From: a virus
Taxonomy: Duplodnaviria > Heunggongvirae > Uroviricota > Caudoviricetes
Strand: one strand, 5' to 3'
DNA length: 6,930 bases
IMG/VR virus record: IMGVR_UViG_2778261572_000009
Location: 1-6,930 of that record
Part shown: positions 2,264 through 6,888 of the stretch, one piece after another
Position numbering within the stretch: the stretch's first letter is position 1
Layout of the letters: each line of letters opens with the position of its first letter
Made by a program: the position numbers and the translations under genes
The notes under the pieces: generated by a model
Seen by the model: the letters and a program-made list of their open reading frames with translations, nothing else
Databases searched by the model: none
What the model was told of the DNA's origin: nothing

Positions 2264-2290
2264 AAAAAAAACCCCCACATCATGTGGGGG
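2264..2290 (-). terminator. Rho-independent terminator candidate upstream of fieF
   Basis: Stem CCCCCAC (2272-2278) / GTGGGGG (2284-2290) with a 5-nt loop. On the plus strand it is preceded by A8 (2264-2271), so on the minus strand it is a GC-rich hairpin followed by U8. Confidence 0.55.
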
Positions 2291-2328
2291 AAGACAGGGA
2301 TGGTGTCACAAAAAAGCACCTAACCTGA

Positions 2329-2350
2329 TGATATAAATGGATTTATATCA
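2329..2350. repeat. Perfect AT-rich palindrome (10-bp arms, 2-bp spacer) in the prophage/chromosome junction region
   Basis: TGATATAAAT (2329-2338), GG, ATTTATATCA (2341-2350); the arms are exact reverse complements. Its nature (protein-binding site or recombination-related) is unknown. Confidence 0.4.
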
Positions 2351-2717: not shown

Positions 2718-4178
2718 TCACTCATCATCTTCTGTTTCGTACTCCACATCAGAAAGCCTGACCTCAAGCTCTAAGGACGTCGTGAAGCCGCTATTATTCA
2801 GAAAATGTGTCACCTTAGTGATTGTCCAGTCCTGCTCGTCTATGACGCGCTTAAAGCCTGACACTTTAACCGGTGTTTCCGTGTAAATATCTGCCCGACC
2901 GGTAGCCAGGCTGATGGAAAACTCCGCGACGCCCCGTTGCAGTTTGTCCCACTTCGCCTGAGCGGCGCGCATGGCCTGCGCTTTCGTGGCATATACCGTG
3001 GTCAGTGCAAAAACGTTGTCAGCCTCACCGGCCATGTATTCACCTTCGCGCGCTTCCGGTACTTTAGGCGCTTTCTTCTGCGTGACTGGTTTCGCTTTCG
3101 GGTGCTCCAGTGCGCGCAGGTGTTTCTCTTTCTTTTTGCGTTTCAGTTTTACCTTCTGCTTTTGCGGCTTCGGGTCTTTGGTGTGTAACCACTTTGCCGT
3201 TACGCCGGTATAGGCTCCACGGTCAGCAATCGCAAAATGATGACGGTCACCGTCGCTGCGGGTGAGGGTAATCTGCGGGATTTTTTTACCGCTGGCAGTC
3301 ACCCCCTGCCCCGCTTTGAGAAACAGCAGTTTTCCCATTTTTACCGACACCTCACCGCCGTTGCGTTCAGCAAGACGGGTCAGGAATTTCGCATCAGACT
3401 CCTGCGACTGGTCGATGTGCGGGATTTTAATTCCGGCCAGTGACGGAGCGACACTGGCTTTCAGCCTGTTACGGGTGGCCACCCCGACATTGGACAGCGT
3501 TTTATGCCAGCCCTGCTCCTGGTCGATTCTGGCACGCAGACCCAGCGCACGGGCGGTGGCATACGCGGTGGCGGTGGTGCTGGTGACCGTATCCCATGCG
3601 AGGAAATCCGGCCAGATGACCATCAGCTCACGCTGGCTGAAATTCTGGCGGTAGGCTTTCACCTCGGAAATGGTCTTACAGCCCCATGCGCTGATATACC
3701 CGAAAGCGCGCAGCTTCTGACAGACGGATACCAGTGCAACAGCCACCTCTTTGGTGTCCAGTCCCGGCACACCGAGAATACGCGGTTTAACACCGGTTAC
3801 CGACTCCGCCGCCAGCAGGGCTTTCAGTCCGGTGTACTGACCGTTTTCGTCGGTGGTGCCGATGATATTGGAAACGGTCTGCGCAAGTTTCGTTTCCTCG
3901 TCGTCGCCGGTGCCGTCTTCCACACGCACGACAACGGTGACCGGTTTTGACTGGTCGGCGATGGCCTGCAACGATGCCGCCAGCGTGCCTTTTTTACCGG
4001 CCTTTGCAATTGCGCTCTGCACATTGGTAATCAGCACTGGTTTATTGAGGGGGAAGATTTCCGCATCCGCATCGCTGGCCGTGCAGACCATGCCAACAAT
4101 GGCGGTGGATACGGTGGAAATGACGCGGGTGCCGTCGTTAATCTCCAGCACCTGCACGCCGTGATGATAGTCACTCAT
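2718..4178 (-). CDS. Chimeric ORF: N-terminal ~233 aa of P2-like tail sheath protein (gpFI) fused in frame to C-terminal ~250 aa of P2-like tail protein D (gpD); deletion remnant, probably non-functional
   Basis: Residues 1-233 (MSDYHHGVQVLEINDGTRVISTVSTAIVGM ... GWHKTLSNVGV) match the N-terminus of P2-family tail sheath proteins from memory. From about residue 234 (ATRNRLKASVAPSLAGIKIPHIDQSQESDAKFLTRLAERNGG ... VRLSDVEYETEDDE) the sequence matches the C-terminal part of P2 gpD. The RBS GGAG (revcomp of 4187-4190) lies 8 nt upstream of the ATG at 4176-4178. The ORF is intact, but the FI C-terminus, FII, E/E', T, U and the D N-terminus expected between these halves are absent. Confidence 0.8.
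   Translation of the reverse strand: MSDYHHGVQVLEINDGTRVISTVSTAIVGMVCTASDADAEIFPLNKPVLITNVQSAIAKAGKKGTLAASLQAIADQSKPVTVVVRVEDGTGDDEETKLAQTVSNIIGTTDENGQYTGLKALLAAESVTGVKPRILGVPGLDTKEVAVALVSVCQKLRAFGYISAWGCKTISEVKAYRQNFSQRELMVIWPDFLAWDTVTSTTATAYATARALGLRARIDQEQGWHKTLSNVGVATRNRLKASVAPSLAGIKIPHIDQSQESDAKFLTRLAERNGGEVSVKMGKLLFLKAGQGVTASGKKIPQITLTRSDGDRHHFAIADRGAYTGVTAKWLHTKDPKPQKQKVKLKRKKKEKHLRALEHPKAKPVTQKKAPKVPEAREGEYMAGEADNVFALTTVYATKAQAMRAAQAKWDKLQRGVAEFSISLATGRADIYTETPVKVSGFKRVIDEQDWTITKVTHFLNNSGFTTSLELEVRLSDVEYETEDDE
3470..3490 (-). other. Deletion junction inside the FI::D fusion ORF (novel joint between sheath and gpD coding sequence)
   Basis: The sheath-like sequence ends at codon 233 (GTG, complement of 3480-3482) and the gpD-like sequence begins at codon 234 (GCC, complement of 3477-3479). 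The exact breakpoint cannot be fixed without the parental sequences. Confidence 0.6.
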
Positions 4179-4270
4179 CCGTTTAACTCCGTGGTTAATG
4201 GGTGCAACTATTTTCTGTTGGGCAGTGCATGAGACGCTATTTGACCTGGCTGGTCAGTGGATGAAACAAC

Positions 4271-4305
4271 AGATAAAGAAAAGGCAGGCAATTCGCCCGC
4301 CTGTC
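4271..4305 (-). terminator. Weak terminator-like hairpin plus T-rich tract between the orphan ORF and the FI::D ORF
   Basis: On the minus strand, GACAGGC-GGGCGAATT-GCCTGCC (revcomp of 4283-4305; 6 of 7 stem positions pair) is followed by TTTTCTTTATCT (revcomp of 4271-4282). Confidence 0.3.
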
Positions 4306-4497
4306 CTGATTTGTACTCACTCATTTTCCGACTGACAATTTACATAGCCAAAACGCTATCAAATCTGACAGTCTGCTTTGAGCGAGGAGCAGAGGTTAGT
4401 TTTAGTTAACCAAAATGATAAAAAGCAGTAGAAAAATCCGCTCATTACGTTATGGTTATAAGCCGCACATAATCATCCGAGCCAAATCCTCTTGATT

Positions 4498-5397
4498 TCA
4501 AAGAATTAGCACTTGCTCTTCACTAGAAACTATGGTTCTGACTTCACGCTCAAATATTGGATCCATTATCATTTTTCTATTTGTTGGAATAGTAAATTTA
4601 CCGAGTACCATGACAATGCTACTCAACGGAAATAATTTTGGAGTAACATTTCCTAATTGAATCGTAGGATATATATTAAAGCCCCCTTTTATCCTCATTG
4701 GCGAACCTTCAATGAAGTGTCGATAATTAAATTTCGCCATAGGGATTCTCGCCACATGCACTTTCATAATTACAGCAACCTGAGCTATTTTTACTTTCTG
4801 GAGGTAAGTTGACAATCGTTCTAACTGCGTTGTTTCATAGAAAAAATCAGACCACGTTACAGTACTTGTTCCAGTAACAATTTTTATGCTGTTTCTCTTG
4901 TTGGGGTGAGCTTTTCCATATTCATAGATCTCCCGTAAGCTATCCATGTTCTTCACATAAGGGGCTTTCCGACCTCTCTTGACATAAACGCGGTCTGTAG
5001 TATCAGAAGGTGGATTTGCCTGCATAGCTGCAGCTTTTCTGCTTAATTTAGAGATATCATCTTCATCGAGTATATGTATACGGAATATATTATTACCTGT
5101 GGCAAGCGCACGGCTGATATCATGACTGGAATCACTTGCATAAATTGTATTCAATCCTGAAGTTCCATACTGGCATAATTTGTCATGCGTGAAATTTTTT
5201 TCCAGTCTAAAGAAGGCGGGGATATGCAAGGTTTTATTAAAACTCCGACGAATATGGCTTTTGACATACACCAAATGAGCAGAGCAATTTGGGTCAGGAC
5301 ATTTGAGTGGATAGGGATTAACACTATAATTAAAAGTATTTACATTTACTAAAATCTGATTGTTATCAATAGCCTGAGTTATACGAATACCACTCAT
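4498..5397 (-). CDS. Hypothetical protein, 299 aa, AT-rich cargo gene in the prophage G-FI (Z/fun) variable slot; function unknown, candidate defence or lysogenic-conversion factor
   Basis: A 900-bp uninterrupted ORF with ATG at complement 5395-5397 preceded by GGAGGAG (revcomp of 5401-5407) at good spacing. Hand-counted GC is about 30-38% on sample lines, versus about 70% in the adjacent sheath/D ORF. It is flanked by 215-bp and 319-bp spacers with no convincing ORFs. I recognise no protein family in it. Confidence 0.75.
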   Translation of the reverse strand: MSGIRITQAIDNNQILVNVNTFNYSVNPYPLKCPDPNCSAHLVYVKSHIRRSFNKTLHIPAFFRLEKNFTHDKLCQYGTSGLNTIYASDSSHDISRALATGNNIFRIHILDEDDISKLSRKAAAMQANPPSDTTDRVYVKRGRKAPYVKNMDSLREIYEYGKAHPNKRNSIKIVTGTSTVTWSDFFYETTQLERLSTYLQKVKIAQVAVIMKVHVARIPMAKFNYRHFIEGSPMRIKGGFNIYPTIQLGNVTPKLFPLSSIVMVLGKFTIPTNRKMIMDPIFEREVRTIVSSEEQVLIL

Positions 5398-5536
5398 TAC
5401 TCCTCCATAAAGATAGGCGCAAGCATTTAGTAATAAACCATTAACATGCCGAGATCATACCCGATCATTGAAATGTAAACACTCCCCTAAGACGGCTGCT
5501 GGCATAATATTTTATGACATCAGCAATGCCCACCTC

Positions 5537-5578
5537 TGGCACAGAGTGGACTGTCAGATTAGGCTTTACTCTGTGCCA
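5537..5578. repeat. 11-bp perfect inverted repeat with 20-nt spacer between gene G and the orphan ORF
   Basis: TGGCACAGAGT (5537-5547) / ACTCTGTGCCA (5568-5578). It lies 35 nt downstream of the G stop and about 140 nt upstream of the orphan ORF start on the minus strand. No adjacent U-tract. Confidence 0.4.
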
Positions 5579-5612
5579 TAGATATGTAAGCCCACACTAG
5601 AGCTCATACAAC

Positions 5613-6140
5613 TTATTGCGGCATTTCCGGCCATTCAGGATTTGCAGGATCCACACGACTGACCAGAACACTATAGCGTTCCCATGCCTCCAGTCGACTA
5701 CGCTCCTCATCTGTTGCCATATTCAGCCTGACCGCGCGCTCCAGCGGCAAAATCACGGATTCAGCTTCGGAAAGCAAAGCTGCCTTATGTAATTCCGCCA
5801 GTTTCTGCTGTTCGTCTGCCGTATAAATCCGCTTAATCACGGCACCATCCTTAAACATCCATTTACCTGAGTCGTCAGCACGTCGGTTGGAGGTAATATC
5901 AGGAACCTCAACAACGCTAAAACCTTCAGGATTAAGCGTTGAAGCATCTCTGGTGATAGCGACAATAATATTATTTTCATCGTAAACAATCTTTATTGTG
6001 TCTGGCTGAAAGTTCTTCACTTCCTCATACCAGTTTTTTCCGTCCTCAGAGTAAAGCCAGATAACTCCGTGTTTCTTTGTTAACTCATACTGTTCCAGTG
6101 TTTTAGCGTTACCCGCTTTTATGTTCTTTAAGTGCATCAT
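5613..6140 (-). CDS. G: Tail fibre assembly protein (P2 gpG-like Tfa chaperone)
   Basis: The 175-aa product begins [23 protein letters not shown]...[20 protein letters not shown]...[34 protein letters not shown], matching the conserved N-terminal domain of P2 gpG tail-fibre assembly proteins. Its start lies 1 nt after the TAA of the upstream tail-fibre ORF, the usual fibre-chaperone coupling. Confidence 0.85.
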
Positions 6141-6141
6141 A

Positions 6142-6888
6142 TTAAACGCTCGCTACATTATACCAGGTGCCATTTATATACTTTTGAACGGGTCTGTAAT
6201 AAACGCCCGCTATATTATCGGCAGAGTTGGACCCTGTATCCTGAACATTAATACCAGACAATACATGACCTGACGGGCACTGGAAATTCCATGTTTGCCA
6301 GTTGTTCACTCCATAATATTGCTGTGACCCAAGTCGAACATCTTTCACATATCTGGAATCAAAATTGCCATAGTTGCCAGGAATAACTTGCGAGCCACAA
6401 AGCCAGTTACCGTTATTATCCATGTACGCCTGACCATCGGTGCCATTGGCTGTCCTTGAGTTATTAATCATGTAGATGCCAAATTGCTTGTTCCCCAGTC
6501 CACCTATCATGAACTTGCGGTCAGCGTGATTCTGGCGAAGCAACGCCTGAGCGCTATCAGTGTTAACTATATTTTTCCCAAAGATAGCGTTGTTATCGCG
6601 CATCTGAATCCACATACCATTACTGCTGTTAATAGCAAAACGGTCTGAAAGCGTCTCCCCTGAAACATTAAGGCCACGCCCCATCGAAACAGCGCCAGTA
6701 GCGTTATTAATCCATAATGGCCTTAATCCGTTATAAGTCCCCATGTTGTCACCGGAGTTTGTCAACATGAAGTATGTATTTGAACCATCATTACGAATAA
6801 AGAATCCGTAATTACCATAAGCAATACGTAGGCCGTTTGCTGATTTTGATATGACTTCGCCATTTACAATGGCATTGCGTATTTTCAT
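6142..6888 (-). CDS. Tail fibre protein, C-terminal receptor-binding module (gpH-like distal part), encoded as a separate 248-aa ORF
   Basis: The translation contains motifs I associate with distal tail-fibre domains ([18 protein letters not shown]...[17 protein letters not shown]) and sits immediately upstream of the cognate assembly gene G. The first ATG (complement 6886-6888) is preceded 4 codons upstream by an in-frame TGA and has only a weak Shine-Dalgarno sequence. Confidence 0.7.

What the first reader, a model, noticed from the sequence alone, without database searches (positions are those of the whole stretch)
4498..5397. AT-rich 299-aa orphan gene in the P2 G-FI (Z/fun) cargo slot: candidate undescribed anti-phage or lysogenic-conversion factor
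Seen in sequence: a 299-codon ORF with a strong RBS (GGAGGAG), about 30-38% GC versus about 70% in the neighbouring sheath/D ORF, insulated by 215-bp and 319-bp noncoding spacers, co-oriented with the late genes but apparently a separate unit. Established knowledge: in P2 the slot between tail-fibre assembly gene G and sheath gene FI holds the non-essential Z/fun gene (which blocks T5), and this slot has been reported as a variable cargo hotspot carrying diverse anti-phage genes in P2-like prophages. Inference: this gene was horizontally acquired cargo, and its intact state in an otherwise decaying prophage suggests selection for a host-beneficial function. I cannot assign it to any family from memory.
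Basis: partly seen in the sequence, partly recalled or inferred. Interest (0 to 1): 0.85.

Follow-up and report, generated by a model that had tools for sequence, protein, structure and literature searches.

The report
Uncharacterised zinc/OB-fold cargo gene in P2
The 299-codon gene is real, horizontally acquired cargo in the P2 "Z/fun" slot. It is already catalogued as phage WPhi orf44 with no known function, and it belongs to an unstudied family of basic zinc-binding, OB-fold proteins that often sit beside known anti-phage systems, so it is a reasonable but untested candidate phage-exclusion gene.

Summary
The ORF (window 4498-5397, minus strand) is confirmed: 299 aa, GGAGGAG RBS, 37% GC, 215- and 319-bp spacers, between P2 genes G and FI. 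The neighbouring FI'-'D ORF is 56% GC, not ~70%.

It is not a true orphan. It is WP_000014361.1, which is phage WPhi orf44/gp44 and PHROG 7195 (function unknown), and it occurs in 117 of 5426 complete E. coli genomes.

It is unrelated to P2 Fun(Z) or Tin. It has no Pfam, NCBIfam, PADLOC or PDB sequence match, and I found no paper on it.

An exhaustive profile search found 152 relatives (Enterobacterales, Aeromonas, Vibrio, Bacillus). All carry an invariant C-x4-C...H-x3-C site, conserved Arg and aromatic residues, and no conserved acidic residue.

Orthologues are under purifying selection (dN/dS 0.07-0.23). They are always solitary and move between mobile-element cargo sites, repeatedly next to type I R-M, retrons, Gabija, AbiTii and AbiH.

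Best reading: a stand-alone nucleic-acid-binding phage-exclusion protein. This is plausible but unproven, and its expression in the lysogen is doubtful.

The parts
4498..5397 (-). 299-aa ORF (34 kDa, pI 9.8). It is WP_000014361.1 = phage WPhi orf44/gp44 = PHROG 7195. Predicted layout: beta-rich N-terminal region with a CCHC zinc site (C33, C38, H71, C75), an alpha/beta middle region, and a C-terminal OB fold (about residues 200-299).
5400..5406 (-). Shine-Dalgarno GGAGGAG, two bases upstream of the ATG at 5397.
   Evidence: read directly from the sequence
4402..5536 (.). The mobile cargo cassette: the ORF plus about 139 bp upstream and about 96 bp downstream. It is bounded by the breaks in P2 homology. 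The same flanks travel with the 88%-identical copy in a lambdoid phage contig (L020).
5537..5578 (-). Hairpin with an 11-bp stem (GGCACAGAGU...ACUCUGUGCC) and no U-run, in P2-shared DNA. It ends exactly at the cargo boundary and is not a convincing terminator.
5504..5532 (-). The only sigma-70-like site upstream of the ORF on its own strand (TGGGCA-17-TATTAT, 9 of 12 matches). It is weak.
4418..4448 (-). Weak hairpin followed by a U-rich tract, 50-80 nt after the stop codon and inside the cassette. Possibly a weak terminator.
4272..4302 (-). Strong intrinsic-terminator-like hairpin (AGGCGGGCGAATTGCCTGCCT plus a T-run) in DNA shared with P2, immediately upstream of the pF activator site. It is the likely 3' end of the transcript.
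4200..4271 (-). P2 late promoter pF. The Ogr/activator binding site maps to about 4271-4246 and the transcription start to about 4203, by alignment to the annotated P2 record. This accounts for part of the 319-bp 'spacer'.
5613..6140 (-). Upstream flank: P2 gene G, the tail-fibre assembly protein (Caudo_TAP).
2718..4178 (-). Downstream flank: an in-frame FI'-'D fusion ORF. A 4.8-kb deletion removed the FI C-terminus, FII, E, T, U and the D N-terminus. The junction lies at 3479/3480.

Best explanation
The gene is a self-contained, horizontally mobile cargo ('moron') gene. It encodes a soluble, strongly basic 34-kDa protein with three parts: a CCHC zinc-binding beta module, an alpha/beta middle region and a C-terminal OB fold. 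No catalytic fold or catalytic motif was detected.

I infer that it is a single-protein phage-exclusion factor that works by binding rather than by catalysis. It would recognise a single-stranded nucleic acid, or a nucleic-acid/protein complex, made by a superinfecting phage, such as replication or recombination intermediates or a specific RNA. It would then block that phage stoichiometrically or after oligomerising. The logic resembles P2 Tin poisoning the T-even single-strand-binding protein, or HK022 Nun binding nut RNA.

Shown: the cargo status, the family, the conserved zinc site, the fold prediction, purifying selection, the solitary arrangement and the neighbourhood of defence genes.

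Inferred: nucleic-acid binding, anti-phage activity, the target, and expression in the lysogen.
For: 1. Location. The gene sits in the P2 Z/fun slot with sharp cassette boundaries. This slot has experimentally validated defence cargo in other P2-like phages (PMC9519451).

2. Mobility as a single gene. Close orthologues (65-88% identity) occur in:
- a lambdoid phage, between a GIY-YIG and an HNH gene;
- a Serratia island downstream of type I R-M genes;
- the att-int cargo slot of a Morganella prophage, beside a type I-B retron (RT_I-B 3e-91, ATPase-Toprim_I-B 2e-225);
- a P4/P2-type remnant with an RT-Toprim I-C retron (1e-198).
More distant members sit next to Gabija GajA/GajB (E 6e-262 and 3e-288), AbiTii and AbiH. 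No partner gene is conserved across these contexts.

3. Selection. dN/dS is 0.07-0.23 in 27 of 28 pairwise comparisons among eight orthologues; the last could not be computed because dS was saturated. The gene is AT-rich (33-41% GC) in every host.

4. Protein features.
- C33, C38, H71 and C75 are invariant in 121 sequences.
- Conserved residues are Arg (50, 64, 106), aromatic (63, 77, 147, 182, 185-187) and Q295. No acidic residue is conserved.
- pI is 9.8, the family median is 9.1, and there is no transmembrane segment.

Against: 1. No experiment exists, and I found no literature on this protein.

2. Expression in the lysogen is uncertain.
- Only a 9/12 promoter-like site remains upstream.
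- No terminator separates the ORF from the late V-G operon.
- P2-borne copies lack a ~105-bp segment that holds the best promoter-like site (10/12) in the closest relative.
The gene may therefore be expressed mainly late in lytic growth, which would fit a phage-benefiting role better.

3. Several contexts carry no recognisable defence gene: a Proteus bacteriocin cluster, a Leclercia island, a Bacillus plasmid, a relaxase-adjacent copy, and L025.

4. The association was read from about 15 hand-inspected loci. It is not a statistical defence score.

Confidence: 0.42

Rival explanations
1. A function that benefits the mobile element rather than the host. It could be an anti-defence protein, or an accessory single-strand-binding/DNA-protection protein made during lytic growth (or plasmid/ICE entry) that shields the element's DNA or titrates a host nuclease or immune sensor.
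For: - The gene is present in plaque-forming phages (WPhi, Yersinia phage HQ103).
- It is co-oriented with the late V-G operon with no intervening terminator and only a weak promoter of its own.
- It has an OB/SSB-like fold.
- One distant member lies directly after a 1224-aa relaxase on a conjugative element.
Against: - Orthologues lie in chromosomal islands without phage or transfer genes nearby, beside R-M, Gabija and Abi genes. This is where defence genes, not anti-defence genes, usually accumulate.
- The gene is kept full length in about 70 of 117 E. coli carriers whose prophage has lost tail genes.
- It is very rare on plasmids (6 of 72,556 records).
Confidence: 0.2
2. A lysogenic-conversion or regulatory factor unrelated to phage conflict: a zinc/OB-fold DNA- or RNA-binding regulator (transcriptional, post-transcriptional or nucleoid-associated) that alters host physiology.
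For: - The protein is basic and lacks an enzyme signature.
- Family members outside Enterobacterales sit among ordinary chromosomal or plasmid genes: Aeromonas near eno/pyrG/relA, L025 next to lgt genes, and a Bacillus plasmid.
- A conserved upstream non-coding block in non-P2 contexts could be an operator.
Against: - No helix-turn-helix or other classical regulator domain was found.
- The patchy, mobile-element-borne, single-gene distribution with frequent defence neighbours is not typical of a host regulator.
Confidence: 0.2
3. One component of a larger system whose partner went unrecognised, for example a toxin paired with a small RNA or small-protein antitoxin encoded in the long upstream intergenic region, or a sensor that uses a host-encoded effector.
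For: - Orthologues have unusually long upstream intergenic regions (338-1855 bp) with a partly conserved ~100-bp block.
- Two distant members follow a RelE/HTH or MqsA-like HTH pair.
Against: - No protein-coding neighbour is conserved across about 15 contexts.
- There is no Rfam match in the cassette.
- The P2-borne copy has lost the conserved upstream block yet the ORF stays intact in 115 of 117 genomes.
Confidence: 0.12
4. A non-functional or decaying reading frame that merely survives in a cryptic prophage.
For: The window's prophage is heavily deleted (FI'-'D fusion, truncated H). Two of the 117 E. coli copies are partial, and the Vibrio plasmid copy is split.
Against: - dN/dS is 0.07-0.23 across genera.
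- The gene is conserved full length from residue 1 to 299.
- The family holds 152 clusters with four invariant metal ligands.
- The fold prediction is confident.
Confidence: 0.02

Closest known systems
P2 Fun(Z) (NP_046777.1), the reference cargo of the same slot
   Same: It occupies the same G-FI cargo slot. It is non-essential, AT-rich, a single gene, and flanked by the same P2 DNA.
   Different: There is no sequence similarity (BLASTP E 3.6). Fun(Z) is 528 aa against 299 aa. It lies on the opposite strand to the late genes and has a bidirectional terminator, whereas this gene is co-oriented and has no terminator upstream.
P2 Tin (NP_046797.1), a non-enzymatic exclusion protein reported to block T-even phages
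   Same: It is the proposed analogue in logic: a small, stand-alone, prophage-encoded protein that excludes other phages by interfering with single-strand-DNA-binding functions rather than by degrading DNA. That mechanism is recalled from the literature. The P2 record itself notes only 'blocks growth of T-even phages'.
   Different: There is no detectable homology (hhalign probability 0.1%). Tin lies in a different hotspot (A-Q), and its structure and target have no demonstrated relation to this protein.
Zinc-bearing OB-fold nucleic-acid binders (MCM N-terminal domain, MCM10 internal domain, RPA70 DBD-C, AspRS/AsnRS anticodon-binding domain)
   Different: Sequence identity is 7-15%. No sequence-level relation was found. 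The zinc ligands lie in a separate N-terminal module (C-x4-C...H-x3-C) rather than inserted in the OB fold. There is no helicase, synthetase or other catalytic partner domain.
Validated single-gene or small systems from P2 hotspots (PD-T4-5, PD-T4-10, PD-lambda-5, CmdTAC, Rst_DUF4238, DprA-PRTase)
   Same: They share the genomic niche and the discovery logic (PMC9519451, PMC9122126).
   Different: None of their PADLOC models matches this protein or any of the 121 family members consistently.
PHROG 7195 / phage WPhi gp44
   Same: Identical family. The match is full length at E 1e-217, and 118 of 121 family members hit it. The WPhi protein is 99.7% identical.
   Different: Nothing differs, but the PHROG carries no functional annotation.

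Membership tests
PHROG 7195 / WPhi orf44 family | Full-length profile match | tested here: met
   E 9.9e-218 over residues 1-299 of 299. 118 of 121 relatives also match. The WPhi gp44 protein is 99.7% identical.
P2 Fun(Z) | Sequence homology to NP_046777.1 | tested here: not met
   BLASTP best E 3.6 over 31 residues.
P2 Fun(Z) | Location between G and FI of a P2-like genome | tested here: met
   The flanks are 88-90% identical to P2, and the cassette is swapped between window 5537 and 4401.
P2 Tin | Sequence or profile homology | tested here: not met
   hhalign probability 0.1%, E 0.65.
Known or candidate defence families (PADLOC-DB v2.0.0) | Match to any of 5027 defence-protein HMMs | tested here: not met
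   No hit at E<=1 for the protein. Among the 121 relatives there were only two unrelated single hits at E about 4e-4. DefenseFinder and databases later than 2023 were not available.
Anti-phage defence gene (functional class) | Recurrent placement in mobile-element cargo hotspots or defence islands next to known systems | tested here: inconclusive
   Type I R-M, retron I-B, retron I-C, Gabija, AbiTii or AbiH lie within about 5 kb in 6 of about 14 non-P2 contexts. The other contexts show none. No genome-wide statistic was computed.
Anti-phage defence gene (functional class) | Reduces plating or replication of at least one phage when expressed | not testable with these tools
   This needs plaque assays. 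No published test was found.
OB-fold nucleic-acid-binding proteins (fold class) | Five-stranded OB beta-barrel topology | tested here: met
OB-fold nucleic-acid-binding proteins (fold class) | Binds single-stranded DNA or RNA | not testable with these tools
   Only indirect support: pI 9.8, and conserved Arg and aromatic residues.
Zinc-ribbon / CCHC metal-binding module | Four conserved Cys/His ligands in two knuckles | tested here: met
   C33-x4-C38 and H71-x3-C75 are invariant in 121 of 121 sequences. They flank a four-strand beta meander (residues 41-65) in the model. Metal content was not testable.
Pfam / NCBIfam / PDB sequence families | Any significant profile match | tested here: not met
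   Pfam: none for the protein and none shared among the 121 relatives. NCBIfam: none. PDB: none with the single sequence or the profile.

The most novel reading that the evidence does not exclude
WPhi orf44 is the founding, experimentally tractable member of a new family of single-protein, non-enzymatic anti-phage factors. They would have a zinc module plus an OB fold, occur from Enterobacterales to Bacillus, and sense and sequester a phage nucleic-acid intermediate directly. This would be a minimal binder-only immunity protein distinct from every catalogued defence system.
Probability: 0.3. Interest if true: 0.7.

Novelty: new variant of a known kind. Interest (0 to 1): 0.55.

Why it matters
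The P2 Z/fun slot and similar hotspots are proven reservoirs of defence genes, and most of their cargo is still annotated as hypothetical.

This gene is a well-defined candidate: one gene of 900 bp, present in a cultivable phage (WPhi) and in 2% of complete E. coli genomes. Its family is conserved across phyla, the structure prediction is confident, and the invariant residues can be mutated directly.

If it protects against phages, it would add a defence family with no recognisable enzyme. That would bear on how a binder-only protein tells foreign nucleic acid from self.

If it instead serves the phage late in infection, it would be a cautionary example that cargo in 'defence hotspots' is not always defensive.

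Tried and rejected
- Fun(Z) or Tin homologue: rejected.
- Known defence family: PADLOC v2 gave nothing for the protein or its relatives.
- Pfam, NCBIfam and PDB sequence searches, with the single sequence and with the 121-sequence profile: nothing.
- Tandem-OB internal duplication: hhalign of the N-terminal half against the C-terminal half found nothing.
- Informative domain fusions in longer relatives (354-467 aa): none. One NeuB/SAF 'fusion' looks like a metagenomic artefact.
- The first AlphaFold run with 12 close sequences failed for residues 1-150 (pLDDT 51.5). It was superseded by the 121-sequence run.
- The search for homologous proteins with the profile added only three sequences.
- The genome-contig scan with A1 found no locus.
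- The afdb50 fold library was unavailable, so the N-terminal 200 residues could not be searched on their own.
- Rfam and tRNA scans of the window found no RNA gene in the cassette.
- Literature and supplement searches for the accession or the peptide found nothing.
- 'Junk ORF' was rejected on dN/dS and family depth.

Full report
**1. The observation**

The window holds, all on the minus strand:
- pfkA (137-1099) and fieF (1280-2182);
- a P2-type ogr (2418-2636);
- a 486-aa ORF whose N-terminal half is tail sheath FI and whose C-terminal half is gpD (2718-4178);
- the 299-aa ORF of the finding (4498-5397);
- tail-fibre assembly gene G (5613-6140);
- the C-terminal part of tail-fibre gene H (6142-6888).

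The ORF has GGAGGAG two bases before its ATG.

The ORF is 37.0% GC, with GC3 31.7%. The sheath/D ORF is 56.0% GC, not about 70%. G and H are 45% and 43%.

**2. The slot and the cassette**

Aligned to P2 (NC_001895), homology stops at window 5537, 76 bp past the G stop. It resumes at 4401, 97 bp past the ORF stop. A 1135-bp cassette therefore replaces P2's 2076-bp cassette. In P2 that cassette holds the V-operon terminator and fun(Z), a 528-aa gene on the opposite strand.

Much of the 319-bp downstream 'spacer' is ordinary P2 DNA:
- a strong terminator-like hairpin at 4302-4282;
- the pF activator site, mapped to about 4271-4246;
- the pF transcription start, at about 4203.

**3. Not an orphan**

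- The protein is 99.7-100% identical to orf44/gp44 of phage WPhi, to a hypothetical protein of Yersinia phage HQ103, and to one in a record labelled Peduovirus P2.
- It is RefSeq WP_000014361.1, present at >=99% identity in 117 of 5426 complete E. coli genomes, always chromosomal.
- It matches PHROG 7195 (function unknown) end to end.
- It has no hit in Pfam, NCBIfam, PADLOC v2 or the PDB by sequence.
- It shows no similarity to Fun(Z) or Tin.
- No paper or held supplement mentions the accession or the peptide.

The Z/fun slot itself is an established hotspot (PMC9519451; bioRxiv 10.1101/2024.10.15.618418; PMC13586616). The hotspot analysed by Rousset et al. is the other one, between A and Q (PMC9122126).

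**4. The family**

The word-indexed search found only 12 clusters, all at least 65% identical and all 299-307 aa. The five that carry a source name come from E. coli, Serratia, Morganella, Leclercia and Proteus.

An exhaustive HMMER profile search of 1.84 billion representatives found 152 proteins at E<=1e-3 and 47 at E<=1e-10. Most are 295-330 aa.

Named members come from Photorhabdus, Yersinia, Aeromonas and Bacillus, plus Vibrio and Pseudoalteromonas plasmid copies. All are annotated 'hypothetical'.

In a 121-sequence alignment with mean column identity 21%:
- C33, C38, H71 and C75 are invariant;
- R106, Y147, W182, F185 and Q295 are near-invariant;
- R50, R64 and several aromatic residues are conserved by class;
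- no acidic residue is conserved.

The protein is basic (pI 9.8; family median 9.1) and has no hydrophobic segment. None of the 121 members has a consistent Pfam or PADLOC hit. The longer relatives reveal no informative fusion.

**5. Structure**

With 12 close sequences AlphaFold failed (pLDDT 51.5). With the 121-sequence alignment it gave pLDDT 93.4 and pTM 0.75.

The model has three parts:
- a beta-rich N-terminal region, where the two metal knuckles flank a four-strand meander (residues 41-65);
- an alpha/beta middle region (about residues 82-200);
- a C-terminal beta-barrel.

- RPA, Teb1, Ten1 and HIN domains.

The first about 200 residues could not be searched on their own. This is the main gap in the analysis.

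**6. Selection and mobility**

Among eight orthologues, dN/dS is 0.07-0.23 in 27 of 28 pairwise comparisons; the last could not be computed because dS was saturated. The gene is 33-41% GC in every host, always below the local GC.

The gene is always solitary, and its neighbours differ in every context:

| Context | Neighbours |
|---|---|
| Lambdoid phage contig L020 (88% identity) | between a GIY-YIG and an HNH gene; shares the cassette flanks |
| Serratia island | type I R-M genes and an integrase |
| Morganella prophage, att-int slot | type I-B retron |
| P4/P2-type remnant near smpB | RT-Toprim retron (type I-C) |
| Photorhabdus | Gabija (GajA/GajB) |
| Metagenome contig (L035) | AbiTii |
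| Vibrio plasmid (copy split) | AbiH |
| Leclercia island, Proteus bacteriocin cluster, relaxase-adjacent copy, RelE/HTH-adjacent copy, Aeromonas, L025, Bacillus plasmid | no recognised defence gene adjacent |

This is suggestive guilt by association. It comes from hand-inspected loci, not from a statistic.

**7. State in E. coli**

Of about 117 carriers, 47 have intact FI-FII next to the gene. The rest have a truncated sheath gene.

At least three different deletion architectures exist:
- the window, with an in-frame FI'-'D fusion (junction 3479/3480) at the fieF site;
- strain NIPH17_0036, also at fieF;
- strain E4, at the trhP/yegP site.

The window's exact arrangement is in none of the 5426 genomes. 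All copies are >=99% identical, and G and ogr are also intact. Survival in remnants therefore says little by itself.

**8. Expression caveat**

- On the gene's strand the upstream spacer has only a 9/12 promoter-like site, at 5532-5504.
- It has no terminator. The hairpin with an 11-bp stem at 5578-5537 lacks a U-run.
- The P2-borne copies lack a ~105-bp upstream segment that is present in the lambdoid copy and in the other genera.
- In the lambdoid copy that segment holds the best promoter-like site, TTGGCA-17-TATACT, 10 of 12 matches.

In P2-like phages the gene may therefore be read through from the Ogr-dependent late pV operon. This weakens the assumption that it is expressed in the lysogen.

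**9. Interpretation**

The best-supported reading is a mobile, stand-alone, non-catalytic nucleic-acid-binding protein (zinc module plus OB fold) that acts as a phage-exclusion factor. My confidence is about 0.4.

The rivals are:
- a function that benefits the phage or other mobile element, such as anti-defence or DNA protection (0.2);
- a regulator or lysogenic-conversion factor unrelated to phages (0.2);
- one part of a system with an unrecognised partner (0.12);
- a non-functional ORF (0.02, effectively excluded).

**10. Novelty and score**

The sequence has long been in databases. The slot is a known hotspot, and uncharacterised cargo there is common.

The new elements are the family definition, the invariant CCHC site, the zinc/OB-fold architecture without a recognisable enzyme, and the recurrent defence neighbourhood. 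Together they make this a concrete, easily testable candidate for a new defence family.

Interest: 0.55.

Noticed in passing
window 2718-4178 (junction 3479/3480): A 4.8-kb deletion fuses the N-terminal ~233 codons of sheath gene FI in frame to the C-terminal part of gene D, giving a 486-aa chimeric ORF. FII, E, T and U are gone. This exact arrangement occurs in none of 5426 complete E. coli genomes.
   Followed up: yes
window 6878-6930: Homology to tail-fibre gene H stops at 6877. The last 53 bp match, at 100% identity, a short repeat found on many E. coli chromosomes and plasmids. In strain 1303 that repeat lies ~240 bp downstream of a reverse-transcriptase-domain gene. This suggests H is interrupted by a group II intron or a similar mobile element. 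Rfam gave no hit on the short stretch.
   Followed up: partly
window 5398-5536 versus L020 9860-9965: P2-borne copies of the cassette lack a ~105-bp upstream segment that is present in the lambdoid copy and, in diverged form, in Serratia, Morganella, Proteus and Leclercia. In L020 the segment holds the best promoter-like site (TTGGCA-17-TATACT). The native promoter may have been lost in the P2 lineage.
   Followed up: partly
window 5537-5578 (minus strand): A hairpin with an 11-bp stem and no U-run sits in P2-shared DNA and ends exactly at the cargo boundary. It could mark the recombination point for cassette exchange.
   Followed up: no
window 4100-5700: Sigma-70-like sites are over-represented in the AT-rich cassette on both strands (10 found versus 4.4 +/- 2.1 in shuffles), including a 10/12 antisense site at 5303-5330. 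This is typical of AT-rich foreign DNA and hints at H-NS silencing or spurious intragenic transcription.
   Followed up: no
window 2264-2330 (+): A sub-threshold Rfam match to the sRNA family Hrs1 (31.8 bits versus a gathering score of 56.4, E 0.003) lies in the fieF-ogr intergenic region, at the prophage/chromosome junction. It is probably chance.
   Followed up: no
L041 7001-7900 (Vibrio tubiashii plasmid pFP31): The family member there appears split into two short ORFs (a likely pseudogene). It lies in an island with AbiH, a GIY-YIG nuclease and large AAA/P-loop NTPase genes.
   Followed up: no
L035 8996-9997, L010 9311-12445 and L004 5740-7663: Unannotated genes with no Pfam or PADLOC hit lie directly beside family members in islands: a 333-aa gene after the AbiTii-adjacent copy, a 1044-aa gene in Proteus, and 268- and 370-aa genes after the type I R-M genes in Serratia. 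They may be further uncharacterised defence candidates.
   Followed up: partly
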